Below, one piece after another: positions 335-62,411 of a stretch of DNA of 64,000 bases. Both the position numbers and the translations under genes were made by a program. Location of the stretch: IMG/VR virus record IMGVR_UViG_3300025875_000006, positions 25,614 to 89,613 of that record. One strand, given 5' to 3'. Under the pieces are notes generated by a model. It made no database searches. It was not told the origin of the DNA and saw only the letters and a list, made by a program, of their open reading frames with translations. The DNA is from a virus (lineage: Duplodnaviria; Caudoviricetes). Each line of letters starts with the position of its first letter. Position 1 is the stretch's first letter.

Positions 335-1003
335 TCAGGCGAGCCCGAGGCGGTGGAAGTCCTCCTCCTCCTCGCGCCGCAGCCGCTCCTCGCGCCGGGC
401 CAACACCTGGGTGCCGAAGCCGAAGACGAAGTGCAGGACCGCCGCGCCCAGGAAGCCGTTGCCGGTGCGGTACCCGTCGCCGAGCCCGTAGGCCGCGATC
501 CACCCGCCCAGCACCAGCGCCACGATCCCGAAGATGAAGGCCGCGATGTCGGGGATGTAGCGGGAGTCGGTGGCCAGCAGGAAGGCGGCCAGGATCAGCA
601 GGGCGCTCCCGCCTCCGGCCTTCAGCCAGCTGTCAACCGGGCTCTCGCGCAGGAACGTGATGCCCAGGACCAGGTAGGCCGCACCGACGAACAGGTGGCC
701 CATGCTCAGCGGCTTGGCCCAGCCGGTGGCCAGGCCGAAGAAGGCGACCCCGGCCGGGATCAGGAAGGCCAGGCCCAGCACCTCCAGCGGGATGTCCTGC
801 TCGATGCCCACCAGCGTCGCCGACGCGGCCTCCGTGTCGCTGCCGGAGGTGGCGTAGTCCATCCCGCGCTGGGCGGCCGTCCAGATGATGACCACCTGGG
901 CGATGAGCAGGACGGCGTTGTAGCTGCCCGGCCGCCAGGTGCCGCGCAGGTGGAGCCCGCACAGACGCGCCCAGGCGGAGCGCAGGCGGGTGGCGATGGT
1001 CAT
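335..1003 (-). CDS. multi-pass membrane protein in lysis cluster
   Basis: 222 aa with about 6 hydrophobic segments; overlaps the holin-like gene stop by 4 nt. Confidence 0.75.
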   Translation of the reverse strand: MTIATRLRSAWARLCGLHLRGTWRPGSYNAVLLIAQVVIIWTAAQRGMDYATSGSDTEAASATLVGIEQDIPLEVLGLAFLIPAGVAFFGLATGWAKPLSMGHLFVGAAYLVLGITFLRESPVDSWLKAGGGSALLILAAFLLATDSRYIPDIAAFIFGIVALVLGGWIAAYGLGDGYRTGNGFLGAAVLHFVFGFGTQVLARREERLRREEEEDFHRLGLA

Positions 1004-1473
1004 GTGCCCTCGGGGGTGAGTCGGTTCCCGGCAGCGTCCCGGGGATCGGACAGGGGAGTGACCTTGTTGCGGGCCTTGATCCAGGCCATGAAGTACGGGC
1101 CCATCAGCGCCCAGGCACCGCCGATGGCCAGGATGGCGTTGGACGCCTGGAGGGCGATGCCCTCGACGTCCAGGCCCTGGATGCTCGCGGGGAGCAACGG
1201 AGCGAACAGCCGCAGCAGTCCGCCGACGGCGAGGATCACACCGGAGACGGCTCCGGCGATCTTCGCGGCGTTCAGGACCGGCTCGGGGCGCTTGCCGTCG
1301 GCGGGAGCGGGGGGTGTCTCCTGCGCAAGGGTGGGGGTCTCTCCGCCAGGAACAGGGGGTTGCTCCGCTGGGAGCGCGGGGTCGGCCATCTCGATGTCCT
1401 CCGTGTCAACCGCTGGCTCGGGCTCCGGAGCGAAGGCCGTAGCCCCCGCGTCCGGAGCCCGGTGCCGACCCAT
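1000..1473 (-). CDS. holin-like protein
   Basis: Two TM segments followed by ARNKVTPLSDPRDAAG, a C-terminal pattern typical of actinophage holins. Confidence 0.65.
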   Translation of the reverse strand: MGRHRAPDAGATAFAPEPEPAVDTEDIEMADPALPAEQPPVPGGETPTLAQETPPAPADGKRPEPVLNAAKIAGAVSGVILAVGGLLRLFAPLLPASIQGLDVEGIALQASNAILAIGGAWALMGPYFMAWIKARNKVTPLSDPRDAAGNRLTPEGT

Positions 1474-2063
1474 CAGGCGTCGGCGGCCTGGGCGGAGCGC
1501 TCGCGGGCGGCGGCCAGCTGCTGCTGGCGGCGCTCGTCGGACAGGCCCTGGAGCACGTTCGCGTGCTCGCCGGTGCGGACCCGGTCCAGCGCGATGCCGC
1601 CGTTGGCGTAGACGTCGGGGTTGACCGTCGTGCGGGCGACGCCGTCCTCGGACTCGCTGGCCGGGGTCTCCGGACCCTCGCCGCCGGTGGACGCCTTGGC
1701 GTCGGGGCTGGTGACGCTGGAGGTCTTGGCGGCCTCGGCCGTGCGGATGCGCTCGATCAGCTCCTCGCGCTTCCCCCGGCCGTTGACGTCCAGGTCACCG
1801 GCGCGCTCCTGGAGCGCGCGGTAGGGCCACTTCTCCTCGTCGTCGTACTCGTCGGCCACCGGGGCCACGGCGGCACCGACCACCGGGTCCTGGTTGATGG
1901 TCACGTCGGCCTGCTGCTTCTCCCCCTCGGAGGCCTCGGTGACGTTGGCCGCCAGGGAGGACGCGCTGGCGGCCTCGGGGTGGTTGGCCGACGTGTCGTC
2001 GGGGGTGGCCGACAGGGTGGCCGTGGTCGGTTCGGTCTGCTGGTCCAGGGACTGGTCGGGCAC
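1473..2063 (-). CDS. acidic low-complexity protein with SAP/HeH/Rho-N-like helical motif
   Basis: GTG start after GAGG; WPYRALQERAGDLDVNGRGKREELIERI matches the HeH/SAP-like pattern. Confidence 0.55.
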   Translation of the reverse strand: MPDQSLDQQTEPTTATLSATPDDTSANHPEAASASSLAANVTEASEGEKQQADVTINQDPVVGAAVAPVADEYDDEEKWPYRALQERAGDLDVNGRGKREELIERIRTAEAAKTSSVTSPDAKASTGGEGPETPASESEDGVARTTVNPDVYANGGIALDRVRTGEHANVLQGLSDERRQQQLAAARERSAQAADA

Positions 2064-2140
2064 AGGGCACCTCGCTGGTTGCTGATGGTGGGCACGCGCG
2101 TGCTCACGGTACCGGCGGGGCATAGCACAGCGCCCCCGCG

Positions 2141-2545
2141 CTACCCCTCCAGGTAGACGGCAGCGCGGCGCAGAAGTTCAGGGTCGTCCCCGAAGTTGCC
2201 CAGGCCGTGGTTGCACCCTCGACAGAGCCAGCCACGCACCCGGCCGGTGCTGTGGCAATGGTCCACGTGCAGCGCCTTCTCGGTGGACCCGCAGATGCGG
2301 CACCCCTGTGAGCGCTCGGCCAGCAGCTTGTCGTGCTGCTCCCGTGTCAACCCGTACTTCATCATGCGCTGCCGCCGCTGGCGGGACTCCTCGGTTCCGC
2401 GCGGCTCCTTCGGGCGGCGGCAGACCCACGTCGTCACCCCGGCAGGCGTCTTGCGTGGCCGGATCGGAATGTCGGGTCCGCAGTGCTCGCAGGTGCCCCG
2501 GCGCTTCACGGTGTCGCGGCTGGTCAGAACATGCAAACGCCCCAT
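2141..2545 (-). CDS. recombination endonuclease VII-family (homing) endonuclease
   Basis: CRIC...LHVDHCHSTGRVRGWLCRGCNHGLGNFGDDPELL signature. Confidence 0.9.
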   Translation of the reverse strand: MGRLHVLTSRDTVKRRGTCEHCGPDIPIRPRKTPAGVTTWVCRRPKEPRGTEESRQRRQRMMKYGLTREQHDKLLAERSQGCRICGSTEKALHVDHCHSTGRVRGWLCRGCNHGLGNFGDDPELLRRAAVYLEG

Positions 2546-2591
2546 GCCATGACCTTACGGTCTGGCATGGGACGTTGGCGGGATCGTCCGG

Positions 2592-2909
2592 TCAGCTGGC
2601 CTTGGCGGGCTTCACGGGCACGAAGCGCAGGAAGACCTCCACCGGGTACTCGCGCTCGACGCGCTTGTCGGTGCTGACCTGCACCTCCCAGTAGCCGCCC
2701 TGGGGGTCGGCGAAGGCCTTGATCTGCCCGCGCCGGATGCGGTAGGCGGTCTGGCTGAACACGCTCAGCCGGTCCTCCTCGCCGCCGCCCACCCGGAACC
2801 ACTGACCCGGCATGGCCTGGACGGTCTCGGCGACCTTCTCGAAGTCCTCGAACAGCACCCGGGACCGGGTACGCCGGGGCCCCTGCTCGGTCACGGTTGC
2901 AATCGTCAT
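2592..2909 (-). CDS. hypothetical protein, leaderless start
   Basis: 105 aa starting MTIATVTEQ; ATG 6 nt after a CATACT -10. Confidence 0.75.
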   Translation of the reverse strand: MTIATVTEQGPRRTRSRVLFEDFEKVAETVQAMPGQWFRVGGGEEDRLSVFSQTAYRIRRGQIKAFADPQGGYWEVQVSTDKRVEREYPVEVFLRFVPVKPAKAS

Positions 2910-2915: not shown

Positions 2916-2945
2916 AGTATGGGGCACTTGGTCAACAGTGTCAAC
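2916..2945 (-). promoter_or_regulatory. leaderless sigma70-type promoter with tandem GTTGAC repeat
   Basis: Minus strand reads TTGACA-ctGTTGACCaagtgccc(17)-CATACT-N6-ATG. Confidence 0.85.
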
Positions 2946-5032
2946 TAGGCCGGGTCCTCGGCGGGCTCCGCCGGGGTGACCTTGGCCGCCGCCTTCTTCT
3001 TCGCCTTGGCCGGAGCCCCGGTGGCGAACAGCGCCTGGAGCTTCTTCTGGTCCTGGACCAGCTCCTCCAGCTTCATCGCGTTCTCGCCGAACCGGTCGAT
3101 CTGGCGCTCCTCCACCGTGCCGGTGGTGACGTAGTCGTAGACCTTGACCGCCTTGTGCTTCTCCGAGCCGATGCGGTGCACCCGGTCCAGCCCCTGCTTC
3201 CAGAGGATCGGGGACCAGCTGCGCTCCAGCCGCAGCAGCGAGCTGGCCGCCGTCAGCGTCACCCCGGTGCCCCCGGCCGCGTAGGTGTAGAGCATCCAGC
3301 GCTTCTTGCCCTGCTGGAAGTCGGTGATGGCCAGGTCGCACTGCTGGTCGGTCCGGTCCCCGGCGACGCTCACGATCTCGGTGGGGTCCAGCCCGAGCGT
3401 GTCAACCAGGGCCTGCTCGACCAGCCGCAAGAACCGGCGGCTGACGAAGCTCATGGCCACCTGCTCGCCCTCGAACTCCCCGGCCCGGATGTCGTCCACC
3501 AGGGAGTCGATCTTGCAGCTGGGCATCCGCAGCAGCATCTTCACCGGGACGTCGTCGGCGTCCGGGCCCGGGTTGAAGGCCTCGGGGTCGTCGGGGTAGC
3601 CCGTGGCGCTGGCCAGCATGGACAGCCGCCCGGTGGCCACCATGCTGTTGGCCGCGACGATCTTGCCCTCCTGGACCATCAGGACCATCTCGTCGCGCAT
3701 CTGGCTGTAGGCGGCGGCCTGCTCCCGGCCCATCTCGCACTCGCGGATGAACTCCCCGCCGGTCAGCAGCGGCGGCAGGTCCAGCACCTCGGCCTTCAGA
3801 CGGCGGCGCGACATCGCGCTGAAGACCTGCTGGAACTCCTCGCGCCGGGTCGGCTTGAAGCCGAACACCTGCGGGAACCCGGCCATGCTGTAGCCGCGCT
3901 CCAGGTAGTAGTCCACGTAGGTGGTCTTCACCGGCCAGGCGTCGGCGTCGGCGGTGTGCAGCACCGTCCAGCTGGCCTCGGAGTCCGAGCTGATGGGCGT
4001 GCCGGTCAGCCCCCAGCGCAGGGCGTCCGGCGCGCTCCGGATGAGCCCCCAGAGCGCCTGGGTGGTCTGGGAGAGGTTGTTCAGCACGCGGTGCAGCTCG
4101 TCGGCCACGATCAGGCTGAAGTCGATGGCGTTCAGCTCGCGCTCGTGGCGCTGGCACTTCGCCTCGGTGACGTGCTCCTCGTCGGACTGCGGCGGGCCGC
4201 CGTGGGCCTCGCACTTCTTCAGCGCGTGCCCGGGGGCGGCGGCGTACCGGGTGTGGCTGCGCAGGGCCTCCCAGCCGATGATGCCGATGTCGGCCTCGCC
4301 GGTGGCCAGCCGCTCGATGGCCGCACGCCGCTGGGTGGACGTGCCCCGGATGATCTCCACCCGCGCCCAGGGGATGAACGTGGCCAGGTCGTCGGCCCAG
4401 GCGGTCTTCAGCGTCTTCTTCGGCGCGATGACCAGGATCGGCCGGTGGGGCGGCTCGTGGCCGGTGCCCTCCGGGTCGGGGTCCGTGCTCGGGTCCGGGA
4501 CCAGGTCCAGCTTCAGGATGCCGTTGAGCACGGCGGCCGTCTTTCCGGTGCCGGTCTCGTTCAGCAGCAGCCGCCCGCGCGTGGGCACGATCCCACCGCC
4601 GTAGGACAGCCACTCGCCGTCGTCCTCCTGGTGGGGGTAGAAGACGTCGTCCTCGGCCTTGACGGCCGTGGGGTCCACGCGGGCCGCCAGCTCGCGCATC
4701 CGCTCCCAGTGCCCGGCCTGCTCGTTGACCCACGCCTTCAGCGCCGGGTGCGGCAGCAGCTTCAGGCCGGTCTCCACCGACATCGTCTTCAGGGCCAGCA
4801 CGGCGGGCCAGGCCTTCGGCAGCGTCCAGACCTGGTCGGCCTTCGAGTACAGCGCGCCGGGGATCAGCTGGAGGCGCGGCATGAACGTGGCGGGCACGTA
4901 GACGGCCATGCGCCCGGCGTACTTGCCCACGACGACGTCGTAGGGGTAGATGCCCGGCTTGGCCCCGGCCAGCTTCACCGTGTCAACCGGCGGGCTGAGC
5001 TGGGCGGGGGCGTCGGTCAGGGTGGCGGTCAT
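2945..5032 (-). CDS. SNF2-family DNA helicase
   Basis: NETGTGKT Walker A, LIVADELH Walker B, LTGTP motif III, QGLDRVHRIG motif VI. Confidence 0.93.
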   Translation of the reverse strand: MTATLTDAPAQLSPPVDTVKLAGAKPGIYPYDVVVGKYAGRMAVYVPATFMPRLQLIPGALYSKADQVWTLPKAWPAVLALKTMSVETGLKLLPHPALKAWVNEQAGHWERMRELAARVDPTAVKAEDDVFYPHQEDDGEWLSYGGGIVPTRGRLLLNETGTGKTAAVLNGILKLDLVPDPSTDPDPEGTGHEPPHRPILVIAPKKTLKTAWADDLATFIPWARVEIIRGTSTQRRAAIERLATGEADIGIIGWEALRSHTRYAAAPGHALKKCEAHGGPPQSDEEHVTEAKCQRHERELNAIDFSLIVADELHRVLNNLSQTTQALWGLIRSAPDALRWGLTGTPISSDSEASWTVLHTADADAWPVKTTYVDYYLERGYSMAGFPQVFGFKPTRREEFQQVFSAMSRRRLKAEVLDLPPLLTGGEFIRECEMGREQAAAYSQMRDEMVLMVQEGKIVAANSMVATGRLSMLASATGYPDDPEAFNPGPDADDVPVKMLLRMPSCKIDSLVDDIRAGEFEGEQVAMSFVSRRFLRLVEQALVDTLGLDPTEIVSVAGDRTDQQCDLAITDFQQGKKRWMLYTYAAGGTGVTLTAASSLLRLERSWSPILWKQGLDRVHRIGSEKHKAVKVYDYVTTGTVEERQIDRFGENAMKLEELVQDQKKLQALFATGAPAKAKKKAAAKVTPAEPAEDPA

Positions 5033-5319: not shown

Positions 5320-5822
5320 TCGGGGCTCCATCGGGTGTTCAGCCAGAGGATGGCGTGCTGGAGGGCCTTCACGGCGTGGCCGTTCCCGCCCTTGCCGACG
5401 TTGTTGGGTGGCTCGCGGTCGCGGCGGTAGCTGCCGATCTTCGCCGGGGTGCCGAAGCTGTTGGCGTGGCTGACCTGCTGGACGAAGAACCGGGCGGGGT
5501 CGTCGGCCATGACCCACCGGCAGAAGCCGATGATCTCCACGGCCTCGGGCTGCCAGGTCGCTGCGCCCTCGCGCGGCCACCAGCCCTCGATGACGATCCC
5601 GTCCAGGCCCCGCTTCGTGGTCGGGTGCTGCTGGGTGGCCAGCGACCAGACCCGGTTGCAGAAGGCCAGCTGCGAGCGCTCCTCGCCCCACTCGATGACG
5701 TCGATGCCGACGCCGGTCAGCTGCTCGGTGTCAACCACCGGCCGGAACAGGACCCACCCGGTCTCGCCCCCGGGGTCCACGGCCAGCCAGAGCCCGTCTC
5801 CGCGTGCCACGACCTGTCTCAC
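5316..5822 (-). CDS. RuvC-like Holliday junction resolvase
   Basis: LWLAVDPGGETGW and IVIEGW acidic motifs; position in replication operon. Confidence 0.75.
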   Translation of the reverse strand: MRQVVARGDGLWLAVDPGGETGWVLFRPVVDTEQLTGVGIDVIEWGEERSQLAFCNRVWSLATQQHPTTKRGLDGIVIEGWWPREGAATWQPEAVEIIGFCRWVMADDPARFFVQQVSHANSFGTPAKIGSYRRDREPPNNVGKGGNGHAVKALQHAILWLNTRWSPE

Positions 5823-6214: not shown

Positions 6215-8013
6215 TTTGCCTCTGCCCAGTTGTTGCCAGCGCCCGGTTCAGCTGTCACATCGACCTTCCAGCCCGTCTTTTCCGTGACGATCTGGTTCAT
6301 CACCTCGGCGATCTCCTGCATGGCGTCGGGGACCTCGGGCTCGGGGATGGAGAACAGCACCTCGTCGTGGACGGGCAGCATCATGTAGGGCCCGAAGCCA
6401 GCGGCGTCCAGGCCGACCATCGCCTTCTTCAGCGCGATGGCGGCCGAGCCCTGGCAGACGTAGTTGCCCAGCTTGCGGCGCTCCTGCGGGTCCCGGACCT
6501 TGAACTCCCGGCCCCACGGGCTGGTGATCACGTGCTCCAGCTCGCCGCGCTCGATCTTGCGGGTCTGGACCAGCTCCGCGCCCAGGGTCTTCAGCGACGG
6601 GTAGGTGTTCTCCAGCGCCTTCCACGTCGGGACCAGGTCGTAGACGCCGACCCCCGCCTGCGCCGCTGCGGTCTCGATCCCGCCGCCGAATAGCTTGGTG
6701 TAGGTGGTGGCCTTCAGCAGGCGACGGCGCGCGTCCTTCTTCTTGAAGTCCGGCTCGTGGTAGACGTCGCGGCCCACCTGGACGAAGAAGTCGTCGCCGG
6801 TGGCGTCGGCCAGCTTCAGCGCCTTGATCATCGCCTCGTCGCCGGTGATGGACGCCCACATGCGCAGCTCGATCTGGCCGAAGTCGGCGGTGACCACCTT
6901 CTCGCCGTCCTCGCGCGCCACGACCGCCCGGCGGACCGTGGGGTCCTCGTCGGCGCTGGGCAGCTGCTGGAGCGGTGGGTTCTCGATGCTCATCCGGCCG
7001 GTGCGGGCCTCGACCGGCTTGATGCCGGGGTGGATGATCCCGCGCCCCAGCTGGCCGCCAGAGGCGTTGAACATCGCCTCCAGGTAGCTGGTGCGGGTCT
7101 TGTAGAGCCCCCGGAAGGCCAGGACGTCCCGGGCGGCCGGGTGGTCGATCTGGGCCAGCACCTCGCCGTCCAGCTTGGTCTTGCCCTTGTCCGTCTTGCC
7201 CGGGAGCTTCACGCCGTCGTTGGTCAGCACCAGCTCCAGCTGGCCGCCCTGGTGCGGGTTCGTGATCCCGAGCGCGGTGAGCCGGGCGCGGACCTCGGCC
7301 TCCCGGCCGGTGAAGTCCTCGATGCTCTCGTAGAGGTAGGCCCCGTCCACGGGCAGCCCGCGCCAGGACATCTCGTTCGTGATCCGGACGCTGGCCATCT
7401 CCAGCGCGTGGTCGTTCGCCCAGCGCTTCCGGCGGCCCTGCGCCTCGTAGACCTCCCACAGCGCGGCGGTGCCGCACGTGTCAACCACGCCGTAGAGCGG
7501 GTAGGGCTTCCAGCCCATCGGCACGGTGGACCAGTCCCAGCCGCCGTTCTTCATGCCCTCGTGCAGCACCCGCTGGCCTGCGCCGTACCAGGGACCGAAC
7601 TCCTGCATCCCGAGGTTCTTCAGCTGGCGGTTCTGGTCGGCGTAGCCGCTCACGGCCGCCCAGGCGAACGTGTCCTCCACGATGGACCAGTCCAGCTCGA
7701 TGCCCTGGCTGCGCAGCGCGAGGCCGTCGTAGCCGACGTTGTGCCAGACGATGGGCACGCGGTGCTGCGAGCACCAGTCCAGCGCCCCGGCGACCAGGGC
7801 GGGCCACCCCTCGAAAGGGATGGCCCACCCGCCGGTCACGTCCCCGAACTGCATCATCCGGACCTTGAACCGAGGGTTCCACCAGTCCAGGCCGGTGGTC
7901 TCGGTGTCAGCTGCGACCATGCGGCGGCCGGGGGTGGTCAGCCACTCCCAGAACTGGGACACCTGGTCGATGCTGGTCAGGACCCTGATCCGGAGGTTCG
8001 GCACCTCAGACAC
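6211..8013 (-). CDS. polA: DNA polymerase I (family A; 3'-5' exonuclease plus polymerase)
   Basis: AADTETTG (ExoI), ARTGRMSIENPPLQQLP, ADFGQIELR (motif A), KATTYTKLFG (motif B), PVHDE (motif C). Start approximate. Confidence 0.95.
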   Translation of the reverse strand: MSEVPNLRIRVLTSIDQVSQFWEWLTTPGRRMVAADTETTGLDWWNPRFKVRMMQFGDVTGGWAIPFEGWPALVAGALDWCSQHRVPIVWHNVGYDGLALRSQGIELDWSIVEDTFAWAAVSGYADQNRQLKNLGMQEFGPWYGAGQRVLHEGMKNGGWDWSTVPMGWKPYPLYGVVDTCGTAALWEVYEAQGRRKRWANDHALEMASVRITNEMSWRGLPVDGAYLYESIEDFTGREAEVRARLTALGITNPHQGGQLELVLTNDGVKLPGKTDKGKTKLDGEVLAQIDHPAARDVLAFRGLYKTRTSYLEAMFNASGGQLGRGIIHPGIKPVEARTGRMSIENPPLQQLPSADEDPTVRRAVVAREDGEKVVTADFGQIELRMWASITGDEAMIKALKLADATGDDFFVQVGRDVYHEPDFKKKDARRRLLKATTYTKLFGGGIETAAAQAGVGVYDLVPTWKALENTYPSLKTLGAELVQTRKIERGELEHVITSPWGREFKVRDPQERRKLGNYVCQGSAAIALKKAMVGLDAAGFGPYMMLPVHDEVLFSIPEPEVPDAMQEIAEVMNQIVTEKTGWKVDVTAEPGAGNNWAEAK

Positions 8014-16828: not shown

Positions 16829-16838
16829 GGCGTGTTTG

Positions 16839-56646: not shown

Positions 56647-58134
56647 ATGGTCGCCGCTGGGCAGCAGCCGCCGTCGGGCTTCTTCCCGGCGCTGATCGCG
56701 GCTGCTCGTGTCAGCGGGATGCTGGATGATCCGGCTGTGCTGACGGCCTCCAAGTGGCAGGACTGGCTGCACCCGCGCGGCAAGGACGGGCGCTTCATCG
56801 AGAAGCAGAGCTTCGTCAACGTCTTCGCCAACCCGAACGCCCTGCTGAGCGACCGCACGGCCGTCCGCCGCCGGGCGCGGATCAACGAGCTGCGGCCCGA
56901 GGGGGCCTACGTCAGCTACCAGGACATCGAGGGCAACCCGATCCCGGCCGACCCCGAGGCGGGCTTCCCCGACCTGATCCCGGTGGACGACTTGTCCACG
57001 AAGGTCAGCACCGCGCCCACGGCCATCGCGCACCTCCAGCCGGGCGAGAGCGCGGCCAAGGAGGTCGCCGACGCGCTGGTCCCGGCCATGACCCGGGAGA
57101 GCTGGGAGGCCGAGATCGCGGCGCTGTCCGCGTCGCTGGCCGCCGACCGGCCGGAGCAGCTGGTCACCGTGTCAACCGGCCAGGGCGAGGTCACGCCCGA
57201 GGAGTTCCAGGAGCACCAGGCCTACATCAGCTGGGTCAACACCATCGGCATGAAGGGCCCCGGCCGCTCGCTGGCGATGGACGGCGCGTTCAAGGACAGC
57301 TTCGGGCTCTGGTCGGAGGAGATGCAGCAGGTCTTCGACGCCCTGGTGGACGACGCCTACAACGACCTGACCCGGAACCAGACGAAGCCGCGCAACCGCC
57401 GGGCCATCATGCTCGGTGGCCTGCCCGGTGCCGGGAAGTCCTCCACGCTGGAGGCGATGACGAAGGCCGGGGTCTTCCGCGAGGACGAGTGGATCATCGC
57501 CAACCCGGACTACTTCAAGGACGTCATCATCGCCAAGGGGCTGGCCCCGCAGCTGTCCGGGCTCACCCCGGCGGAGACGGCCAGCTTCATCCACGAGGCC
57601 AGCTCCGAGATGAACCACATGCTGGAGCAGCTGCTGACCGTCGAGGGCTTCAACGTCATCTTCGACATCACGATGGGCGGCCGGATGCGGCCGGGCGAGA
57701 AGTCCTGGACCGAGCGCATCGTGGACCGGCTGGAGGCGCTGGACTACAGCACCGACGGCCTGTTCGTGGACGTGCCGCCGACCACCAGCCGCCAGCGCGC
57801 GCAGTCCCGGCACATGGCCGGGCTGAACACGCTGCGGACCGGCCAGTCGGCGCGGCCCAACGACCCCGAGCTGAAGAACGGCGGCCGGACGGTGCCTGAC
57901 GCCGTGATCAACGCGGCCGAGTTCGGCGAGAACGACCCCGACGCCGAGTCCTACTCCAGCCACAACGCCCGGAACTTCGCAGCGCTGAAGGAGCAGTTCG
58001 CCCGCTGGGCGGTCTACGACAACTCCGGCGACGCGCCCTACCTGGCCGACAGCAGTGGCGGGACCGACCCGGACCCGACCATGCTGCCGGGCTTCTACGA
58101 GGCCGTGCAGGCAGAGGAGGCGCAGGCCGCGTGA
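56647..58134 (+). CDS. zeta-toxin-like P-loop kinase with N-terminal HPRG tag
   Basis: AIMLGGLPGAGKSS, IANPDYFK, FIHEASS, VIFDITM, GRTVP. Confidence 0.85.
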   Translation: MVAAGQQPPSGFFPALIAAARVSGMLDDPAVLTASKWQDWLHPRGKDGRFIEKQSFVNVFANPNALLSDRTAVRRRARINELRPEGAYVSYQDIEGNPIPADPEAGFPDLIPVDDLSTKVSTAPTAIAHLQPGESAAKEVADALVPAMTRESWEAEIAALSASLAADRPEQLVTVSTGQGEVTPEEFQEHQAYISWVNTIGMKGPGRSLAMDGAFKDSFGLWSEEMQQVFDALVDDAYNDLTRNQTKPRNRRAIMLGGLPGAGKSSTLEAMTKAGVFREDEWIIANPDYFKDVIIAKGLAPQLSGLTPAETASFIHEASSEMNHMLEQLLTVEGFNVIFDITMGGRMRPGEKSWTERIVDRLEALDYSTDGLFVDVPPTTSRQRAQSRHMAGLNTLRTGQSARPNDPELKNGGRTVPDAVINAAEFGENDPDAESYSSHNARNFAALKEQFARWAVYDNSGDAPYLADSSGGTDPDPTMLPGFYEAVQAEEAQAA

Positions 58135-58460: not shown

Positions 58461-58461
58461 G

Positions 58462-60738
58462 ATGCCACCGCTGCTGATGGCCGGATTCGACCGGCAGCAC
58501 CTGCCCACCCGGAGCATCCGGGACAAGGCCCGAGGGGTGGACGAGCCCCTGGCCCTGAAGCTCCAGACCGGCCAGGTCAGGGCCTGGGACTTGCTCTCCC
58601 TCCAGGCAAGTGCTGTTCCTGGCGCGGCCGAGTGGGCGTCCAAGACCCTGGACGCCATTGTGGCCAGCGCGGCCGAGCGCATCCGGCAGCCGCTGGACTG
58701 CGAGGAGTGCACCGACCTGGGCTTCTACGGCCTGGTGTCGGCCGCCGACGCCGACGTGCTCACCGGCCTGCTCCGGCGTGAGAGCGACGGCGGCTACGAG
58801 CAGCTGACCGCGTCGGGCACCTGGACCCCCTACGAGACGCGCTACGACCAGCACGTCGAGGTGCTGAACCGCGAGCTGGCCGCCGACCTGGCCGAGGCCG
58901 TCACGGCCGGTGCCTCCGGCCTGGCCCGCCGGTACTTCTGGCCGCAGGCCTTCCTGCCGCCGGAGACGATGATCGCCGCCGCCCCGGCCCCCGAGCTGGC
59001 AGCCGACCAGGGCACGGCCCGGCCGACCGCCGGGCCCGACGACGGCTGGCGCGAGTACGCCGTCGTGGACGACCTGGACCCCGGCGCGGTGCTGGAGCTG
59101 ATCCGGCTGCGGCCCGGCCCCGAGCTGGTCGCCTACCGCAACGGCGTCTGGTCCGAGGCCCCCGAGCTGCTGAGCGACCTCCAGGGCGTCCAGCCGCCGC
59201 CGCTGGTCGAGCTGGACCAGCCGCAGCTGGAGACGGTCCTGGCCCAGATCGACCAGGCCGGTGCACCTGAAGCTGGGGTCGAGGCTCCGGCGGCCGACCC
59301 TGGAGCCGAGGTCGAGACCGTGGCCGCCGCCGGTGCGGCGCTGGTGGCCGACGCTCCGCTGACCGTGAGCCCGGACCCGCGCGCCGAGAAGCTGCGCCGG
59401 TACTGGACCACTGGCAAGGGCGCGCTGAAGATCAGGTGGGGGACGCCCGGGGACTGGACCCGGTGCTACCGCCAGCTGCGCAAGCACATGGGCGTGCGGG
59501 CCAAGGGCTACTGCCAGAACCTGCACAAGCGGTCCACCGGCCAGTGGGCCGGTGCCCGTGGGAACCGGGGCGGGGCGGTGGCTGCCTCCGGCGGCCGGAC
59601 CGTCCGCGAGGCCCTGTCGATGGAGGCCGCGCTCGTGGCCGCCGTGTCAACCGGGTCGTGGTTCGGCCCGTCAGGAGGAGATGGCGTGACCAGCGCACTG
59701 AAGGACGGCATCTACAGCGAGGGCGGCAGCGACATCGCGCTGCTGAAGACCCTCACGGCCGGTGGCTTCCCGGTGGCACCCCCGGAGGACTGGTTCGGCG
59801 ACCCGGGCCTGGACCAGCCGACCCCGCTCACGGTGGACGACGACGGCCGGGTCTACGGCCACATCGCCACCTTCGACGTCGCGCACATCGGCCTGCCCGG
59901 CCAGGTGCGCGCGCCGAAGTCCAAGTCCGACTACGCCTACTTCAAGACCGGCGAGCTGGTGACCGCCAGCGGCTCCCGGGTCAACGTCGGCCAGCTGACC
60001 CTGGCCGGTGGCCACGCCAGCCTCCAGGCCGACGCAGCGGCGGCCGTGGCCCACTACGACAACACCGGCAGCGCGGTGGCCGACGTCAACGTGGGCGAGG
60101 ACCGCTTCGGCATCTGGGTGGCCGGTGGCCTCCGGCCCGAGGTCACCCCGAGCCAGCTCCGCACGCTGCGCGCCAGCGCGCCGTCGGGCGACTGGCGGCC
60201 GATCAACGGCAACCTGGAGCTGGTGGCCTGCTGCCAGGTCAACGTCCCCGGCTTCCCGACCGTCCGGGCGCGCGTGGCTGGTGGCGCGATCACCGCGATG
60301 GTGGCGGCCGGTGCTCCCCCGCTGTTCTCCCGCCGCCTGGCGCTGATGGCCGACGCGGCCAACGCCGAGCGGATCGCGGCGCTGGAGTCCGTGGTCTTCA
60401 ACGCCGAGCCGGGGCTGCTGGCCGACGGCGGCGAGGGTGGTGCCGAGGGCGGTGCACCGGCGGCCGAGGGCGGTTCCGTCACGGACGGTGCCCCGGCCGA
60501 GCAGGCGGCCGAGGGCGGCGAGGAGCAGGTGTCCGAGGCCGTCCAGCGCGCCCGTGCGCTGGCCGACGAGCGCCGGGCGGCCAAGGAGGCCGAGGCGGCG
60601 GCGACCGAGGGCGAGCCCCAGGTGACCGGCACCGAGGAGCCCGCCGAGGAGTCGCCGGAGGCCGTGTTGGCCAAGCTCCGCGCCCGGGTGCACGGTGCCC
60701 AGGCCAAGGAGCCCGTGGCGGCTGGCGCGACCGTCTGA
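58462..60738 (+). CDS. capsid maturation protease (multidomain)
   Basis: KLRRYW..GKGALKIRWGTPGDWTRC domain; RVYGHIA...AGGHA...HYDNT...GEDRFGIWVAG...SGDWR protease core; scaffold-like acidic tail. Confidence 0.82.
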   Translation: MPPLLMAGFDRQHLPTRSIRDKARGVDEPLALKLQTGQVRAWDLLSLQASAVPGAAEWASKTLDAIVASAAERIRQPLDCEECTDLGFYGLVSAADADVLTGLLRRESDGGYEQLTASGTWTPYETRYDQHVEVLNRELAADLAEAVTAGASGLARRYFWPQAFLPPETMIAAAPAPELAADQGTARPTAGPDDGWREYAVVDDLDPGAVLELIRLRPGPELVAYRNGVWSEAPELLSDLQGVQPPPLVELDQPQLETVLAQIDQAGAPEAGVEAPAADPGAEVETVAAAGAALVADAPLTVSPDPRAEKLRRYWTTGKGALKIRWGTPGDWTRCYRQLRKHMGVRAKGYCQNLHKRSTGQWAGARGNRGGAVAASGGRTVREALSMEAALVAAVSTGSWFGPSGGDGVTSALKDGIYSEGGSDIALLKTLTAGGFPVAPPEDWFGDPGLDQPTPLTVDDDGRVYGHIATFDVAHIGLPGQVRAPKSKSDYAYFKTGELVTASGSRVNVGQLTLAGGHASLQADAAAAVAHYDNTGSAVADVNVGEDRFGIWVAGGLRPEVTPSQLRTLRASAPSGDWRPINGNLELVACCQVNVPGFPTVRARVAGGAITAMVAAGAPPLFSRRLALMADAANAERIAALESVVFNAEPGLLADGGEGGAEGGAPAAEGGSVTDGAPAEQAAEGGEEQVSEAVQRARALADERRAAKEAEAAATEGEPQVTGTEEPAEESPEAVLAKLRARVHGAQAKEPVAAGATV

Positions 60739-61538
60739 TGCAGACCGGCCTGCTCCAGCGGCTGGAGGTGCTGACGGCGGCTCTGGCCGCCGCAGCGCCG
60801 GAGCCGACGCACCGGATCAAGGCCGACTACGGCCCCGCCGGACCCCCCAAGAAGAAGGGGTCCGGCGGCGGCCGGAAGGTCGCCAGCAAGGCCGGGGAGA
60901 AGCGCTACGGCCTGCCCATCGGCACGCCGCTGGGCGGGACGAAGTCCAAGGCGAAGGGCGACGCTGCCACGCAGCAGAGCTACGACACCTTCATGGGCGC
61001 GAACACCCCGGCCGACCAGCGCAAGGCGGCGGCCTGGATGTCCACCGCCGACCTGGGCCGGGCGGCCGAGGCGCTGTTCAGCTTCAGCTCGGACAACGAG
61101 CGGGACGAGTCGGCGCGGCGGGCGCTGGTGCGCGAGCTGGCCGACCGTGGCATCGACCCGAGGTCGATGGGCTACCGGGGCCCGGCCGTCGTGCTCAACC
61201 CGAGCCCGAAGCAGGACCCGACCGTGAAGGCCGCCGAGACGGCCCAGCGGAAGGTGGAGCAGGCGACGAAGCAGCAGGAGACGGCGGCGCGCAAGGTCCA
61301 GCGCGAGCAGGAGACCGCCGTGCGCAAGGCCGAGAGCGCGCAGAAGACGGCGCAGCGCGACGCCGAGCGCGCCCAGCGGGAGTCCGAGGCGGCCCAGCGC
61401 CGTGAACTGGACCGCCAGATCGCCGAGACCGAGAAGGTCGTGCGCGAGCGCGAGGGCCAGGCGCTGGCGCAGGGGCTGCTGGAGGAGCAGGAGATCAGGG
61501 CGGCGCGCGCCCGGAGGCAGCTGGTCCGCGCCGGTTGA
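60738..61538 (+). CDS. head-module protein with long charged coiled coil
   Basis: RKVASKAGEKRYGLPIGTPL motif and E/K/R/Q-rich heptads; TGATG coupling. Confidence 0.7.
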   Translation: MQTGLLQRLEVLTAALAAAAPEPTHRIKADYGPAGPPKKKGSGGGRKVASKAGEKRYGLPIGTPLGGTKSKAKGDAATQQSYDTFMGANTPADQRKAAAWMSTADLGRAAEALFSFSSDNERDESARRALVRELADRGIDPRSMGYRGPAVVLNPSPKQDPTVKAAETAQRKVEQATKQQETAARKVQREQETAVRKAESAQKTAQRDAERAQRESEAAQRRELDRQIAETEKVVREREGQALAQGLLEEQEIRAARARRQLVRAG

Positions 61539-61549
61539 CACGGACAGCA

Positions 61550-61582
61550 GAAGGGCCCCCCGCCAGTGGCGAGGGGCCCTTC
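61550..61582. terminator. hairpin between convergent genes
   Basis: GAAGGGCCCC...GGGGCCCTTC. Confidence 0.8.
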
Positions 61583-61597
61583 GTTCGTGCGGGAGGA

Positions 61598-62032
61598 TCA
61601 GGCCTGCTCGGCGTCCTCGTCGGCCTGCTCGGCCTCGGCCAGCTTGGCCATCGCGGCCTCGTCGTCCGGGTCCACCTCGTGCTCGCTGAAGGTGTACTCG
61701 TCACCGGCGGTCAGACCGGCCAGGATGGCGTTGAACGCCTCCTGCTCGGCGGCCGACAGCTTGCCCTCGGCGACGTCCTTCTTGGCCTGGAGGTAGGCCT
61801 CGTAGTCCCGGGTCTGCGCCAGCTCCAGCGCCTTGACGGCACCGGTCTGCATCTTGCGCAGCTCGTTGACGACGGCCTGGAGGACGGCGACCTGCTTCTC
61901 CTGGGTCATGTTCGGCTTGCCGGAGACCGCCTTGTTGATCGCCCGCGCCGACTCCGCCAGCTTGTGGCGGTAGGGGGTGAGGGTCTTCGGGGTGACGGGA
62001 GCCGGGGTGTTCTCGGGGGTCTGGTCGCTCAT
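61598..62032 (-). CDS. helical hypothetical protein
   Basis: MSDQTPENT; RBS GAGAGG; acidic tail. Confidence 0.7.
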   Translation of the reverse strand: MSDQTPENTPAPVTPKTLTPYRHKLAESARAINKAVSGKPNMTQEKQVAVLQAVVNELRKMQTGAVKALELAQTRDYEAYLQAKKDVAEGKLSAAEQEAFNAILAGLTAGDEYTFSEHEVDPDDEAAMAKLAEAEQADEDAEQA

Positions 62033-62220
62033 CGTGGGGTCCTCTCGTCGGACGGGTCTGCTGCGGGTGCAGTCTTGCTGGCCACGTAGAGCGCCGTGAA
62101 GATCACCAGGAAGACGCCGAGGATCGGCATCGCCTGGGCCATGAAGAAGACGGTGACGCACCAGGCGATGAAGCCCTCGGTGATCACCTTCGCCTTCGGC
62201 TGGCTCTCCGTCGTGGTCAT
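62029..62220 (-). CDS. small two-TM membrane protein, leaderless
   Basis: TTGACA-gtGTTGAG...(18)-TATTCT-N6-ATG; two hydrophobic segments. Confidence 0.7.
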   Translation of the reverse strand: MTTTESQPKAKVITEGFIAWCVTVFFMAQAMPILGVFLVIFTALYVASKTAPAADPSDERTPR

Positions 62221-62411
62221 GCAAGAAGAATAGACCCTGCCTCTCAACACTGTCAACTAGATTATTTCTGCGTGTCGTGGCGGCCCGTTCGGCCTCGTCT
62301 CAACCAAGTCGGTCCTGTACCGTCCCGCAGTGAAGCGACGACAGACGGTGACCGCTCCCGTCTGATCGGACCTCCGGTGATGTCTGACCCTTCCACCGGA
62401 GGCATCCCTTC

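What the first reader, a model, noticed from the sequence alone, without database searches (positions are those of the whole stretch)
631..62257. Genome-wide array of a GTTGACA/TGTCAAC site written into coding sequence
Seen: exact TGTCAAC or GTTGACA begins at 631, 1404, 2345, 2939, 3400, 4981, 5729, 7479, 9766, 10945, 11837, 12329, 14199, 16397, 16838, 17684, 19504, 20145, 23140, 24272, 24518, 24527, 24673, 24980, 25852, 26964, 28367, 28823, 30399, 30408, 30548, 30991, 31835, 34464, 34628, 36109, 36381, 40026, 40613, 41052, 43002, 44330, 44503, 45074, 47071, 48753, 50238, 52362, 53955, 55087, 57170, 59645, 61534 and 62251. That is about 54 copies, against roughly 3 expected from a simple 70% GC model. 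Many lie inside ORFs and force rare codons (GTT Val in A/P-V-D-T, TCA Ser in V-S-T), usually in linker regions. The 9-kb giant gene carries one about every 1.5-2 kb. Known: mycobacteriophage L5 stoperators (GGTGGMTGTCAAG) share the TGTCAA core, but they follow transcription direction, whereas these sites occur in both orientations within single genes. Inference: one phage protein binds this site genome-wide, controlling promoters and possibly organising, protecting or silencing the genome. Candidate binders are the MerR/Xis-like HTH (17686), the Zn-HTH (12609) and the DGQHR/ParB-like protein (20008).
Basis: partly seen in the sequence, partly recalled or inferred. Interest (0 to 1): 0.9.

Follow-up and report, generated by a model that had tools for sequence, protein, structure and literature searches.

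The report
Phage-wide grid of GTTGACA words
An uncultured actinobacterial phage and its three known sister phages write one short DNA word, identical to the bacterial promoter "-35" signal, about once per kilobase across their genomes, even inside genes. The copies are most likely evenly spaced docking points for a DNA-binding factor that has not been identified.

Summary
GTTGACA/TGTCAAC occurs 54 times in the window (3.8 expected) and 84 times in the 89.6-kb phage genome. Every TTGACA carries the 5' G. Forty-nine copies lie in genes, against 1.8-4.4 in codon-preserving shuffles.

Three sister phages from metagenomes carry 95 and 108 copies of the 7-mer, and 58 of the 9-mer GGTTGACAC. In the nearest sister, 17 of 23 alignable sites are unchanged (26% expected). 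Distant kin and 41 actinomycete genomes show no excess.

There are two classes:
- **Promoter copies.** About 20 sigma-A-type, mostly leaderless promoters use the word at -35 and/or -26, as a 9-bp tandem. The tandem copies never have G before the word.
- **Isolated copies.** These read YG-GTTGACA-CS and have no -10 partner. They are spaced more evenly than chance. In late genes they point either way at random.

This argues against Chi, KOPS, primase or promoter signals. It favours an orientation-blind docking lattice with an unknown reader.

The third, and a C2H2 protein I added, lack conserved reading residues.

The closest known system is the stoperators of Cluster A mycobacteriophages. The scan has noted similar, mostly palindromic, lattices in other phages.

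The parts
631..637 (-). isolated copy in gene 335-1003(-), sense, P-V-D-S
1404..1410 (-). isolated copy, probably in the 5' part of ORF 1000-1473(-), sense A-V-D-T
2345..2351 (-). isolated copy in gene 2141-2509(-), sense, G-L-T
2939..2945 (-). -35 copy of a tandem promoter (GTTGACActGTTGACC-N8-CATACT)
2930..2936 (-). degenerate -26 copy GTTGACC of the same promoter
3400..3406 (-). isolated copy in SNF2 helicase gene 2945-5032(-), sense L-V-D-T
4981..4987 (-). isolated copy in SNF2 helicase gene, sense P-V-D-T
5729..5735 (-). isolated copy in gene 5316-5780(-), sense V-V-D-T
7479..7485 (-). isolated copy in DNA polymerase A gene 6211-8004(-), sense V-V-D-T
9766..9772 (+). isolated copy in gene 9744-10577(-), antisense, T-V-S-T
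10945..10951 (-). isolated copy in gene 10766-11104(-), sense A-V-D-R
11837..11843 (-). isolated copy in PD-(D/E)XK nuclease gene 11256-12242(-), sense P-V-D-I
12329..12335 (-). copy in the divergent control region; TTGACA-N19-TATGGT, promoter-like for the leftward operon
14199..14205 (+). isolated copy in Prim-Pol gene 13392-14567(+), sense P-V-D-T
16397..16403 (+). isolated copy in DUF3987 gene 15107-16828(+), sense T-V-D-T
16838..16844 (+). -35 copy of a tandem promoter (17-nt spacer to CATAGT)
16847..16853 (+). degenerate -26 copy GTTGAGA of the same promoter
17684..17690 (-). isolated copy at the stop codon of the Xis/BldC-like gene 17686-18102(-), followed by a hairpin
19504..19510 (+). 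isolated copy in gene 19318-19887(+), sense A-V-D-T
20145..20151 (+). isolated copy in ParB-like gene 20023-20889(+), sense R-L-T
23140..23146 (-). isolated copy in gene 22848-23369(+), antisense A-V-S-T
24272..24278 (+). single -26 copy (GTTGACA-N7-CATAGT) ahead of an ORF-free stretch
24518..24524 (+). -35 copy of a tandem promoter (17-nt spacer to CATACT)
24527..24533 (+). -26 copy of the same promoter; N8-CATACT-N6-ATG at 24554 (leaderless)
24673..24679 (+). isolated copy in gene 24554-24835(+), sense Q-L-T
24980..24986 (-). isolated copy in gene 24874-25110(+), antisense L-S-T
25852..25858 (+). isolated copy in gene 25511-25918(+), sense R-L-T
26964..26970 (+). intergenic copy (26959-26981) preceded by GGTTGACC, no clear -10
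28367..28373 (+). isolated copy in gene 28259-28711(+), sense L-V-D-I
28823..28829 (-). isolated intergenic copy, opposite to the flanking + genes
30399..30405 (-). -26 copy of a tandem promoter; N8-CATACT-N6-ATG at 30378
30408..30414 (-). -35 copy of the same promoter (17-nt spacer)
30548..30554 (+). isolated copy in gene 30428-30970(-), antisense S-V-N-R
30991..30997 (-). single -26 copy; N8-GATACT-N6-ATG at 30970
31450..31456 (-). degenerate -26 copy GTTGAGA of a promoter whose -35 copy is GTTCACA
31835..31841 (-). isolated copy in gene 31513-32124(+), antisense L-V-S-T
34464..34470 (-). isolated copy in gene 34207-34566(-), sense T-V-D-R
34628..34634 (-). isolated intergenic copy followed by a hairpin
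36109..36115 (-). copy in a divergent region; GTTGACA-N8-TATGTC, promoter-like for the leftward gene
36081..36087 (+). degenerate -26 copy GTTGAGA (N9-CATACT) of the rightward promoter
36380..36386 (+). single -26 copy (N8-CAGACT-N7-ATG at 36408) written into the end of gene 36125-36394 as L-V-D-T
40026..40032 (+). single -26 copy; N8-TATTCT-N6-ATGACGCAG, at the head of the late module
40613..40619 (-). isolated copy over the terminase start (GTG TCA ACC), antisense; same base in sister G001
41052..41058 (-). isolated copy in the terminase gene, antisense R-V-N; conserved in G001
43002..43008 (+). intergenic copy, N8-CAGACT (single -26 type); conserved in G001
44330..44336 (+). isolated copy in gene 44178-44369(+), sense R-L-T; conserved in G001
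44503..44509 (-). isolated copy in gene 44366-44662(+), antisense G-V-N; absent in G001
45074..45080 (-). isolated intergenic copy; G001 has its copy 14 bp away instead
47071..47077 (-). isolated copy in the 2988-aa gene, antisense S-V-S-T; conserved in G001
48753..48759 (+). isolated copy in the 2988-aa gene, sense A-V-D-T; conserved in G001
50238..50244 (+). isolated copy in the 2988-aa gene, sense A-V-D-T
52362..52368 (+). isolated copy in the 2988-aa gene, sense A-V-D-T
53955..53961 (+). isolated copy in the 2988-aa gene, sense A-V-D-S; conserved in G001
55087..55093 (-). isolated copy in the 2988-aa gene, antisense I-V-S-T; conserved in G001
57170..57176 (-). isolated copy in the zeta-domain gene 56737-58134(+), antisense T-V-S-T; conserved in G001
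59645..59651 (-). isolated copy in gene 58462-60738(+), antisense A-V-S-T; conserved in G001
61534..61540 (+). isolated copy over the stop of gene 60738-61538(+); conserved in G001
62251..62257 (-). -35 copy of a tandem promoter (GTTGACAgtGTTGAGA-N9-TATTCT)
62242..62248 (-). degenerate -26 copy GTTGAGA of the same promoter

Best explanation
The isolated copies (consensus Y-G-GTTGACA-C-S, about one per 2 kb) form an evenly spaced lattice of docking sites on double-stranded phage DNA. Their orientation does not matter. It is most likely a phage protein that has not been identified.

A likely host chromosome holds only 9 copies of the 9-mer, against 46 on one phage genome. The word therefore works as an address that marks phage DNA. 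The even spacing means that no stretch of the genome is more than about 2-4 kb from a bound factor.

The same 7-bp core is built into about 20 sigma-A-type, mostly leaderless promoters, at the true -35 position and/or 9 bp downstream at -26. The lattice is therefore probably tied to genome-wide control of transcription, by silencing, timing or insulation, in the manner of Cluster A stoperators.

**Shown:** DNA-level selection; conservation of sites and of the lattice in four phages; even spacing; random orientation in late genes; absence from host-type genomes; promoter geometry.

**Inferred:** that a protein binds; that it is phage-encoded; and what binding does.
For: **Excess and recoding**
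- 54 copies against 3.8 in the window, and 84 in the genome.
- 49 copies in genes against 4.4 or 1.8 in codon shuffles.
- 21 of the 48 GTT codons lie in the word.
- All 84 TTGACA hexamers are preceded by G. There are 0 of A/C/T-TTGACA against 6.6 expected.

**Clade trait**
- G001 has 95 copies (control 3), G002 has 108 (control 1), and G044 has 58 copies of the 9-mer (control 0).
- 17 of 23 alignable sites are unchanged in G001, against 26% for random 7-mers (P=2.5e-6).
- One lost site is replaced 14 bp away.

**Longer word.** The flanks C-2, G-1, C+1 and S+2 hold across four reading frames. The 10-mer CGGTTGACAC occurs 33 times against 0.16 expected.

**Even spacing.** The CV is 0.69, 0.55, 0.60 and 0.51, against 0.97-0.98 for random placement (P<=0.0004).

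**Orientation.** In late genes it behaves as a random label on a regular lattice.

**Not a host word**
- 100 copies against 82 control in a 4.8-Mb Pseudonocardia genome.
- 9 against 7 control for the 9-mer.
- 28-251 copies per genome in 41 actinomycete genomes.

**Not promoters.** None of the 49 copies in genes has a TANNNT at promoter spacing.

**Promoter use of the core:**

**Precedent.** The L5 repressor binds 20-30 dispersed asymmetric sites as a monomer (PMC6550527). In L5, 21 of 26 TTGACA hexamers lie in the stoperator context.
Against: - No reader has been identified.
- The Xis/BldC-like and ParB-like proteins are not found in G001 and G002.
- The C2H2 fingers differ in G002 and are missing from the G044 orthologue.
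- The Zn-HTH has a variable recognition helix. A phage that carries a homologue (GAL1) has no array.
- There is no homologue of L5 gp71.
- Early proteins are only 35-65% identical between the sister phages, yet the word is invariant. That would fit a conserved host reader better.
- Tandem promoter copies never have the G-1 that isolated copies nearly always have. The lattice reader may therefore not act at promoters at all.
- No integrase was found, and no prophage relative among 401 genomes. A lysogeny-type silencing role therefore has no support.
Confidence: 0.5

Rival explanations
1. The reader is the host RNA polymerase holoenzyme. Region 4 of sigma-A, alone or through a phage adaptor in the manner of PafBC or MotA/AsiA, docks on perfect -35 words all over the phage DNA. 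This concentrates polymerase on the phage and drains it from the host.
For: - The core is exactly the sigma-70 -35 consensus. It serves as a real -35, with a 17-nt spacer to CATACT, in the tandem promoters.
- The word is invariant across phages whose early proteins are only 35-65% identical. That fits a conserved host reader.
- Host-type genomes hold only about 100 copies.
- A -26 element next to a canonical -10, read through an adaptor, has a precedent in PafBC (PMC8635444).
Against: - Isolated copies require G-1 and prefer C-2, C+1 and S+2. Genuine -35 copies never have G-1 (0 of 11, 11, 12 and 2 in the four genomes).
- To my knowledge, region 4 is not known to read those flanks.
- None of the 49 copies in genes has a -10 partner.
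- No sigma, anti-sigma or adaptor family was found.
- The PafBC word tGTCgg does not match on the right strand.
Confidence: 0.15
2. This is a true stoperator system. A lysogeny (immunity) repressor binds the promoters and the isolated copies, and blocks transcription through the prophage, as in Cluster A mycobacteriophages.
For: - Asymmetric word with a TTGACA core, dozens of dispersed copies, and use in promoters.
- In early genes the copies are mostly co-oriented with transcription, 23 sense and 8 antisense. I counted these by hand from the table.
- Several copies sit at gene ends, just before hairpins.
Against: - No gp71 homologue.
- No integrase or partition pair.
- The portal has no relative above 34% identity in 401 actinomycete genomes.
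- 58% of copies lie inside genes.
- In late genes orientation is random: 11+/14- in G000 and 14+/14- in G001. Stoperators, by contrast, follow transcription.
- The word does not vary between diverged sisters, whereas stoperator motifs co-vary with their repressors.
- The flanks differ between promoter and isolated copies.
Confidence: 0.15
3. The copies are substrates of covalent DNA processing, not docking sites. They could be site-specific single-strand nicks, as in T5 or phiKMV-like phages, or a sequence-specific base modification made by a phage enzyme.
For: - The genome encodes several HNH and endonuclease VII proteins.
- Nicking and modification enzymes read short asymmetric words.
Against: - No methyltransferase, transglycosylase or other modification family was found.
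- From my own knowledge: the known nick systems have about 4-15 sites, not 84-108.
- Selection for even spacing and for exact positions is not expected for a modification target.
- No read-level data could be examined.
Confidence: 0.07
4. The word is a polar signal for a translocating or priming enzyme: a Chi-like stop for RecBCD/AdnAB-type nucleases, a KOPS-like guide, or a primase recognition site.
For: - The spacing of 1-2 kb resembles Okazaki fragment length.
- The strand of the word switches near the divergent replication-gene region at about window 12.3 kb.
Against: - It is not over-represented in any of 41 actinomycete genomes or in the likely host. A host Chi or KOPS word should be.
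- In 36 kb of co-oriented late genes the two orientations are equal, and each alone is no more regular than randomly labelled sites.
- The early-region strand switch coincides with gene direction and with promoter copies.
Confidence: 0.03

Closest known systems
Stoperators and immunity repressor of Cluster A mycobacteriophages (L5 gp71; PMC6550527)
   Same: - An asymmetric word with the -35 hexamer TTGACA at its core.
- Dozens of copies dispersed over the genome.
- Some copies sit in promoters.
- Nearly every TTGACA in the genome belongs to the word: 21 of 26 in L5 and 84 of 84 here.
- Monomer-type site without dyad symmetry.
   Different: - The flanks differ: C-TTGACA-KCCACC in L5, against YGG-TTGACA-CS here.
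- The 13 exact L5 sites that I checked lie in or beside short intergenic gaps, and their strand follows the arm's direction of transcription. Here 58% lie inside genes with recoding, and orientation is random in late genes.
- The density is about twice as high, and the spacing is even.
- There is no gp71 homologue, no integrase, and no variation of the word among diverged sisters.
- Promoter and isolated copies have different flanks.
C1 repressor of phage P1, with its dispersed asymmetric operators
   Same: One monomer-type repressor reads an asymmetric word at many sites scattered over a roughly 90-kb phage genome.
   Different: - P1 has under 20 operators, all at promoters of controlled operons.
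- They are not written into coding sequence or evenly spaced.
- P1 is a temperate plasmid prophage.
KorB/ParB-type lattices
   Same: Evenly spread, conserved docking words, some far from any promoter, often inside genes, about one per 1-5 kb.
   Different: - Those words are palindromes read by dimers with a ParB/KorB fold.
- This word is asymmetric.
- The only ParB-like gene here (20023-20889) is not found in G001 and G002, which share the array.
BldC family (MerR/Xis-like wHTH binding head-to-tail to 9-bp direct repeats; PMC5859096)
   Same: - The promoter tandems repeat the word with a 9-bp period, which is the footprint of one BldC protomer.
- The window encodes a weakly BldC-like protein (17686-18102). 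It scores HTH_17 at 24.3 bits, and matches PDB 6ama and 6amk at E=0.23 and 0.42.
   Different: - BldC reads AT-rich AATTNNNN(C) units by shape.
- The BldC-like gene is present only in G000 and G044, not in G001 or G002.
PafBC '-26 element' promoters (sigma adaptation; PMC8635444)
   Same: Seven or eight promoters here have no -35 hexamer. They have the word at -27..-21 and a canonical -10 7-8 nt downstream. This is the same geometry as tGTCgg-N10-tANNNT.
   Different: - The sequence differs and lies on the other strand.
- No WYL or PafBC-like protein was seen in the phage.
- PafBC sites are promoter elements only, not a lattice.

Membership tests
Cluster A stoperator / immunity repressor system | Asymmetric repressor site of 13-14 bp containing the -35 hexamer, in 20-30 or more dispersed copies | tested here: met
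   Asymmetric word of about 10-11 bp with a TTGACA core. There are 84-108 copies of the 7-mer per genome in G000, G001 and G002, and 58 of the 9-mer in G044.
Cluster A stoperator / immunity repressor system | Sites lie in short intergenic gaps and are oriented with transcription | tested here: not met
   49 of 84 copies lie in coding sequence. In late genes the orientation is 11+/14- (G000) and 14+/14- (G001), and is random with respect to position.
Cluster A stoperator / immunity repressor system | A gp71-type repressor gene | tested here: not met
   blastp, phmmer and tblastn with L5 gp71 against the proteome and the genome gave nothing below E=0.5.
Cluster A stoperator / immunity repressor system | Temperate life style (integrase or parABS) | tested here: inconclusive
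   No integrase or ParA family appeared in the Pfam scans of the proteins I called. The portal has no relative above 34% identity in 401 genomes. Absence is not proven.
Cluster A stoperator / immunity repressor system | Repressor binding blocks transcription | not testable with these tools
   Needs EMSA and reporter assays.
Sigma-70/sigma-A promoter -35 element | TTGACA lies 16-18 bp upstream of a -10 hexamer | tested here: met
   Holds only for the upstream copy of the tandem promoters. The scan found 5 promoter-like sites, of which 3 are exact TTGACA tandem copies, against 0.4 expected in 16 kb. There are 11 such copies in the genome.
Sigma-70/sigma-A promoter -35 element | The same feature, tested on the isolated copies | tested here: not met
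   None of the 49 copies in genes has a TANNNT at 16-19 or at 7-9 nt.
Chi / KOPS-type host words | Over-represented on the host chromosome | tested here: not met
   100 copies against 82 control in the likely host, 9 against 7 for the 9-mer, and 41 actinomycete genomes near control. The host assignment is only a lead.
Chi / KOPS-type host words | Strand polarity along the replichore or towards the DNA ends | tested here: not met
   Equal numbers on both strands, with random labels, in late genes of G000 and G001.
ParB/KorB docking lattice | Palindromic site read by a ParB-fold dimer that the phage encodes | tested here: not met
   The word has no dyad symmetry. The ParB-like gene is not found in G001 and G002.
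BldC-type head-to-tail repeat binding | Direct repeats with a 9-bp period | tested here: met
   GTTGACA-NN-GTTGA(C/G)A occurs in 11 promoters of G000, and likewise in the sisters. The period is as in PMC5859096.
BldC-type head-to-tail repeat binding | A BldC/Xis-like protein present wherever the array is | tested here: not met
   HTH_17 matches occur in G000 and G044 only. P0001 has no homologue in G001 or G002.
PafBC-type -26 element | Element at about -28..-23 with a canonical -10 and no -35 | tested here: met
   This is a match of geometry only. There are 8 single-copy promoters of the form GTTGACA-N7-8-(C/T/G)A(T/G)(A/T)(C/G/T)T.
PafBC-type -26 element | Word tGTCgg on the top strand, read by PafB | tested here: not met
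   The top strand reads GTTGACA. GTC is on the bottom strand.

The most novel reading that the evidence does not exclude
The lattice is a polymerase trap. A phage adaptor, or sigma-A region 4 itself, docks host RNA polymerase holoenzyme on an evenly spaced grid of perfect -35 words whose orientation does not matter. One phage genome offers about as many such words as the whole host chromosome. Replicating phage DNA would therefore strip polymerase from the host and feed the phage's roughly 20 strong leaderless promoters. That would be host shut-off by DNA sequence alone.
Probability: 0.1. Interest if true: 0.85.

Novelty: new variant of a known kind. Interest (0 to 1): 0.62.

Why it matters
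If the isolated copies are docking sites, this clade shows that a phage can pay a real coding cost to keep a regular grid of one word over its whole genome. That cost includes rare codons, and imposed V-D-T, V-S-T, L-T and V-N peptides in polymerase, helicase, terminase and virion genes.

The grid is conserved base for base between sister phages that have diverged to 78% DNA identity. The word is almost absent from host-type chromosomes, so it is a ready-made address for phage DNA.

Together with the palindromic lattices that this scan has noted in other phages, this points to a general and largely undescribed layer of phage genome organisation or control. Here it is in an asymmetric form whose core is the host's own -35 signal.

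- a new sequence-specific DNA-binding module;
- a test of whether stoperator-like control exists outside temperate Cluster A phages;
- a tool for marking or silencing DNA in high-GC actinobacteria.

Tried and rejected
1. **Near-identity DNA search of the window against cultured phages:** no match. The terminase's best cultured relatives are only 38-45% identical. Two of them (DSL-LC01, Phendrix) have no array.
2. **Pattern GTTGACANNGTTGACA in viral contigs:** mostly unrelated promoters and local iteron clusters. ORFs beside those clusters share no protein with this phage apart from an SNF2 helicase.
3. **BLAST of a promoter 61-mer against cultured phages:** only chance hits.
4. **Xis/BldC-like protein as reader:** attractive because of the 9-bp period. 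Rejected because it has no homologue or HTH_17 match in G001 or G002.
5. **ParB-like DGQHR protein:** not found in G001 or G002.
6. **C2H2 two-finger protein** (genome 24535-25341). It is clearly similar to DNA-binding fingers (PDB 2i13, E=6e-11). However, its putative contact residues differ in G002, and the G044 orthologue is an 83-aa protein without fingers.
7. **Zn-HTH:** present in all four phages, but its helix is variable. Its family is common in actinophages (349 records), and one of them (GAL1) has no array.
8. **PafBC, DnaA-box, PhoP and MtrA words,** compared by eye: none matches on the right strand or at the right spacing. This rests on my own knowledge, except for PafBC.
9. **Replichore or primase polarity:** a fit with an origin near window 12.3 kb explains 34 of 49 sites, against 29 of 49 for gene direction. 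Both are my hand counts from the table. The fit fails in the late genes of G001 and in the label-shuffle test.
10. **Sequencing runs** could not be searched for this window.
11. **Structure prediction and the large protein searches** were not used. No candidate justified them.
12. **Gene calls.** They are my own GC3-based calls. Some starts are too short, for example 17686-18102 and the genes that begin at leaderless ATGs.

Full report
**What the sequence is.** The window is bases 25614-89613 of a single 89,613-bp contig with 70.7% G+C. The contig is a tailed-phage genome. It encodes:
- a T4-type large terminase, a family A DNA polymerase, an SNF2 helicase, Prim-Pol and a DUF3987 helicase;
- a PD-(D/E)XK nuclease and endonuclease VII/HNH proteins;
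- a lysin with a PG_binding_1 domain, and a 2988-aa protein after the portal.

The nearest cultured relatives are distant: Actinomycetia phage DSL-LC01 and the Gordonia phages Phendrix, GodonK and GMA2, with terminase 38-45% identical. The N-terminal half of the lysin is 78% identical to a chromosomal gene of Pseudonocardia hispaniensis. This is only a lead to the host.

**The observation.** All 54 listed positions are exact copies; 36381 should read 36380. Dinucleotide shuffles give 3.8 +/- 2.0. The whole genome has 84 copies, and GTTGACA is its most over-represented 7-mer.

With my own GC3-based gene calls, 49 copies lie in coding sequence and 35 lie between genes or at gene ends. Shuffling synonymous codons within each gene keeps every protein unchanged and gives 4.4 copies (maximum 13 in 500 trials). 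Shuffling codon order gives 1.8.

The word is written in four of the six frames:
- GTT-GAC-A.. (V-D-T/S/R/I), 21 copies;
- ..G-TTG-ACA (L-T), 8 copies;
- on the other strand, .TG-TCA-AC. (V/L-S-T), 12 copies;
- on the other strand, ..T-GTC-AAC (V-N), 8 copies.

The frame with an in-frame TGA and the frame needing TGT-CAA are unused. GTT makes up 2% of valine codons, yet 21 of the 48 GTT codons sit in the word. Of 34 V-D-(Axx) tripeptides, 21 are spelled this way. The surroundings are only slightly enriched in P/G/S/D/E, so 'linker regions' is a weak tendency.

**The true word.** Every one of the 84 TTGACA hexamers is preceded by G. A-, C- and T-TTGACA do not occur, against 6.6 expected.

Isolated copies carry further conserved flanks, whatever the frame: C (or T) at -2, G at -1, C at +1 and G/C at +2. 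GGTTGACAC occurs 46 times against 0.45 expected. CGGTTGACAC occurs 33 times against 0.16 expected.

**Relatives.** Three metagenomic viral contigs of 82.7-86.5 kb are collinear sister phages.
- G001 (terminase 73% identical) has 95 copies, against 3 of the reversed control word.
- G002 has 108 copies against 1.
- G044 has 58 copies of the 9-mer against 0.

Where G000 and G001 align at the DNA level (78% identity), 17 of 23 sites are unchanged: 10 of 15 in genes and 7 of 8 between genes. Only 26% of all 7-nt windows in the same blocks are unchanged (P=2.5e-6). One site lost in G001 is replaced by a new one 14 bp away. The distant relatives DSL-LC01 and Phendrix have no array. The array is therefore a conserved trait of this clade.

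**Two classes of copy.** About 20 promoters share one design: [GTTGACA]-ct-[GTTGA(C/G)A]-N8-CATACT-N6-ATGACGCAGA.
- The upstream copy lies 17 nt from CATACT, so it is a normal -35. The independent consensus scan agrees, finding 5 promoter-like sites against 0.4 expected in 16 kb.
- The downstream copy lies in the spacer, at -27..-21.
- The ATG falls where transcription should start, so the mRNAs are leaderless. In the case I checked by coordinate (genome 14520), it coincides with the called gene start.
- Eight promoters have only the -26 copy and no -35 hexamer. This geometry is known from PafBC-dependent promoters (tGTCgg at -28..-23; PMC8635444), although the word and its strand differ.
- The 9-bp period of the tandems equals the footprint of one BldC protomer (PMC5859096).

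Isolated copies have no -10 partner. None of the 49 copies in genes has a TANNNT at either spacing.

The classes also differ in their flanks in all four genomes. G at -1 occurs in 55/60, 46/47, 25/31 and 10/11 isolated copies, but in 0/16, 0/20, 0/23 and 0/4 tandem promoter copies. I cannot explain this. It weakens the idea that one reader serves both classes.

**Geometry of the lattice.** The copies are spaced more evenly than chance:

| Genome and word | CV of gaps | Largest gap |
|---|---|---|
| G000, 7-mer | 0.69 | 3.6 kb |
| G001, 7-mer | 0.55 | 2.7 kb |
| G044, 9-mer | 0.60 | 3.6 kb |
| G000, 9-mer | 0.51 | 4.5 kb |

Random placement gives a CV of 0.97-0.98, and P<=0.0004 in each case.

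In early genes the word mostly runs with transcription: 23 sense and 8 antisense, by my hand count from the table. In the roughly 36 kb of co-oriented late genes the strands are balanced (11+/14- in G000, 14+/14- in G001). There the pooled lattice is very regular (CV 0.51 and 0.40). Each orientation alone is no more regular than randomly labelled sites. In the late genes, orientation is therefore a random label on a regular grid.

**What this excludes.**
- *Host Chi, KOPS or a similar word.* The likely host has 100 copies in 4.8 Mb (control 82), and 9 copies of the 9-mer (control 7). Forty-one actinomycete genomes have 28-251 copies each, mostly within about four-fold of control, and none approaches one copy per kb. 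Six of those genomes are unpublished (G009, G017, G026, G032, G034, G038). The conclusion holds without them.
- *Polar signals* (Chi, primase sites, ops, directional roadblocks). These fail the late-gene test.
- *Promoters.* These fail for lack of a -10.
- *Codon or peptide artefacts.* These fail the shuffles and the use of four frames.

The 9-mer is about 270 times denser on the phage than on the likely host. It therefore addresses phage DNA almost exclusively.

**Who reads it.** I tested candidates by asking whether they occur wherever the array does.

| Candidate | Result |
|---|---|
| Xis/BldC-like HTH (17686-18102; HTH_17 24.3 bits, below the cut-off; best PDB matches are the BldC entries 6ama/6amk at E=0.23-0.42) | Has its own, different promoter and a neighbouring cluster of GGCGACACGG repeats. 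No homologue or HTH_17 match in G001 or G002. |
| ParB-like DGQHR protein (20023-20889) | Not found in G001 or G002. |
| C2H2 two-finger protein with coiled coil, just left of the window (PDB 2i13, E=6e-11) | Present in G001 and G002, but the canonical contact positions differ in G002. The G044 orthologue has no fingers. |
| Zn-HTH (12585-13253) | Present in all four phages at 35-41% identity, but only one residue of its putative recognition helix is invariant. Its HTH family occurs in 349 actinophage records, and one of them (GAL1) has no array. |
| L5 gp71 | No homologue. |

No integrase, partition ATPase, sigma factor or DNA-modification family was found. No prophage relative of the portal was found in 401 actinomycete genomes. 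The word is invariant among sisters whose early proteins are 35-65% identical, which keeps a conserved host reader in play.

**Best reading and rivals.** The most likely reading (about 0.5) is an orientation-blind lattice of docking sites for one factor that binds an asymmetric site of about 10 bp. The factor is probably phage-encoded. The lattice is probably tied to genome-wide control of transcription, because the same core is built into the phage's promoters.

The rivals are:
- host RNA polymerase, through sigma-A region 4 or an adaptor (0.15);
- a true lysogeny-type stoperator system (0.15);
- sites of nicking or base modification (0.07);
- polar enzyme signals (0.03).

**Comparison with known systems.** The closest system is the Cluster A stoperator network. 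There the repressor binds as a monomer to 20-30 asymmetric 13-14-bp sites oriented with transcription (PMC6550527).

In L5 itself, 21 of 26 TTGACA hexamers lie in the stoperator context. The 13 exact sites lie in or beside short intergenic gaps, and their strand follows the arm.

The present array shares the TTGACA core, the asymmetry, the dispersal and the use in promoters. It differs in these respects:
- different flanks;
- twice the density;
- even spacing;
- recoding of genes;
- random orientation in late genes;
- an invariant word across diverged sisters;
- no homologous repressor;
- no sign of lysogeny.

It is therefore not a member of that system, but it may work like one.

Earlier notes of this scan describe phage-wide lattices in other genomes, mostly palindromes and sometimes linked to ParB/KorB-type proteins.

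Noticed in passing
window 18100-18600: A 500-bp, relatively AT-rich gap without genes lies next to the Xis/BldC-like gene. It holds five GCGACAC words (three of them as GGCGACACGG or its complement), on both strands, plus one promoter of the family (GTTGAGA-N8-AATACT). It may be an origin or the control region of that gene.
   Followed up: partly
window 24548-24563, 30369-30384, 40047-40062 and about 15 further places in the genome: The promoters end in a conserved CCATGACGCAGA. The ATG is the predicted first transcribed base, so many early proteins start M-T-Q. One promoter (genome 24489) keeps ACGCAG without the ATG, so the element may act at the DNA or RNA level.
   Followed up: partly
genome 24535-25341 (-), just left of the window (L125:4538-5341): A phage protein with two classical tandem C2H2 zinc fingers (PDB 2i13, E=6e-11) followed by a GCN4-like coiled coil. 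The G044 orthologue is an 83-aa protein without fingers.
   Followed up: partly
window 38477-39682: The N-terminal half of the lysin is 78% identical to a chromosomal gene of Pseudonocardia hispaniensis CCM 8391. This is the only lead to the host.
   Followed up: partly
window 37218-37502; 56737-58134; one protein of alignment A2 (not located): Pfam finds an Acb2/Tad1 hairpin domain (E=6e-15) and an isochorismatase domain (E=7e-19) among the A2 proteins. By an earlier scan note, the Acb2/Tad1 match is the 94-aa protein at 37218-37502. I did not determine which protein carries the isochorismatase match. A Zeta_toxin/AAA_33 domain lies in a 465-aa protein of the virion module.
   Followed up: no
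L060:354-637, L083:61-386, L040:1149-1311 and 12209-12549, L034:5058-5345: Unrelated viral contigs (49-65% G+C) carry tight clusters of 5-11 GTTGACA copies at spacings of about 9-12 bp in one short intergenic region. These look like iterons or operators, not genome-wide arrays. No shared neighbouring protein was found.
   Followed up: partly
genome ends (window 63800-64000 and genome 14-130): The same stretch of about 120 bp of sister G001 aligns to both ends of the contig. The contig is probably circularly closed or terminally redundant, and the last gene (62412-63998) runs off the end.
   Followed up: no
window 17684, 34628, 61534: Several isolated copies sit at or just after a stop codon, a few bases ahead of a GC-rich hairpin. 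They may be paired with terminators.
   Followed up: no
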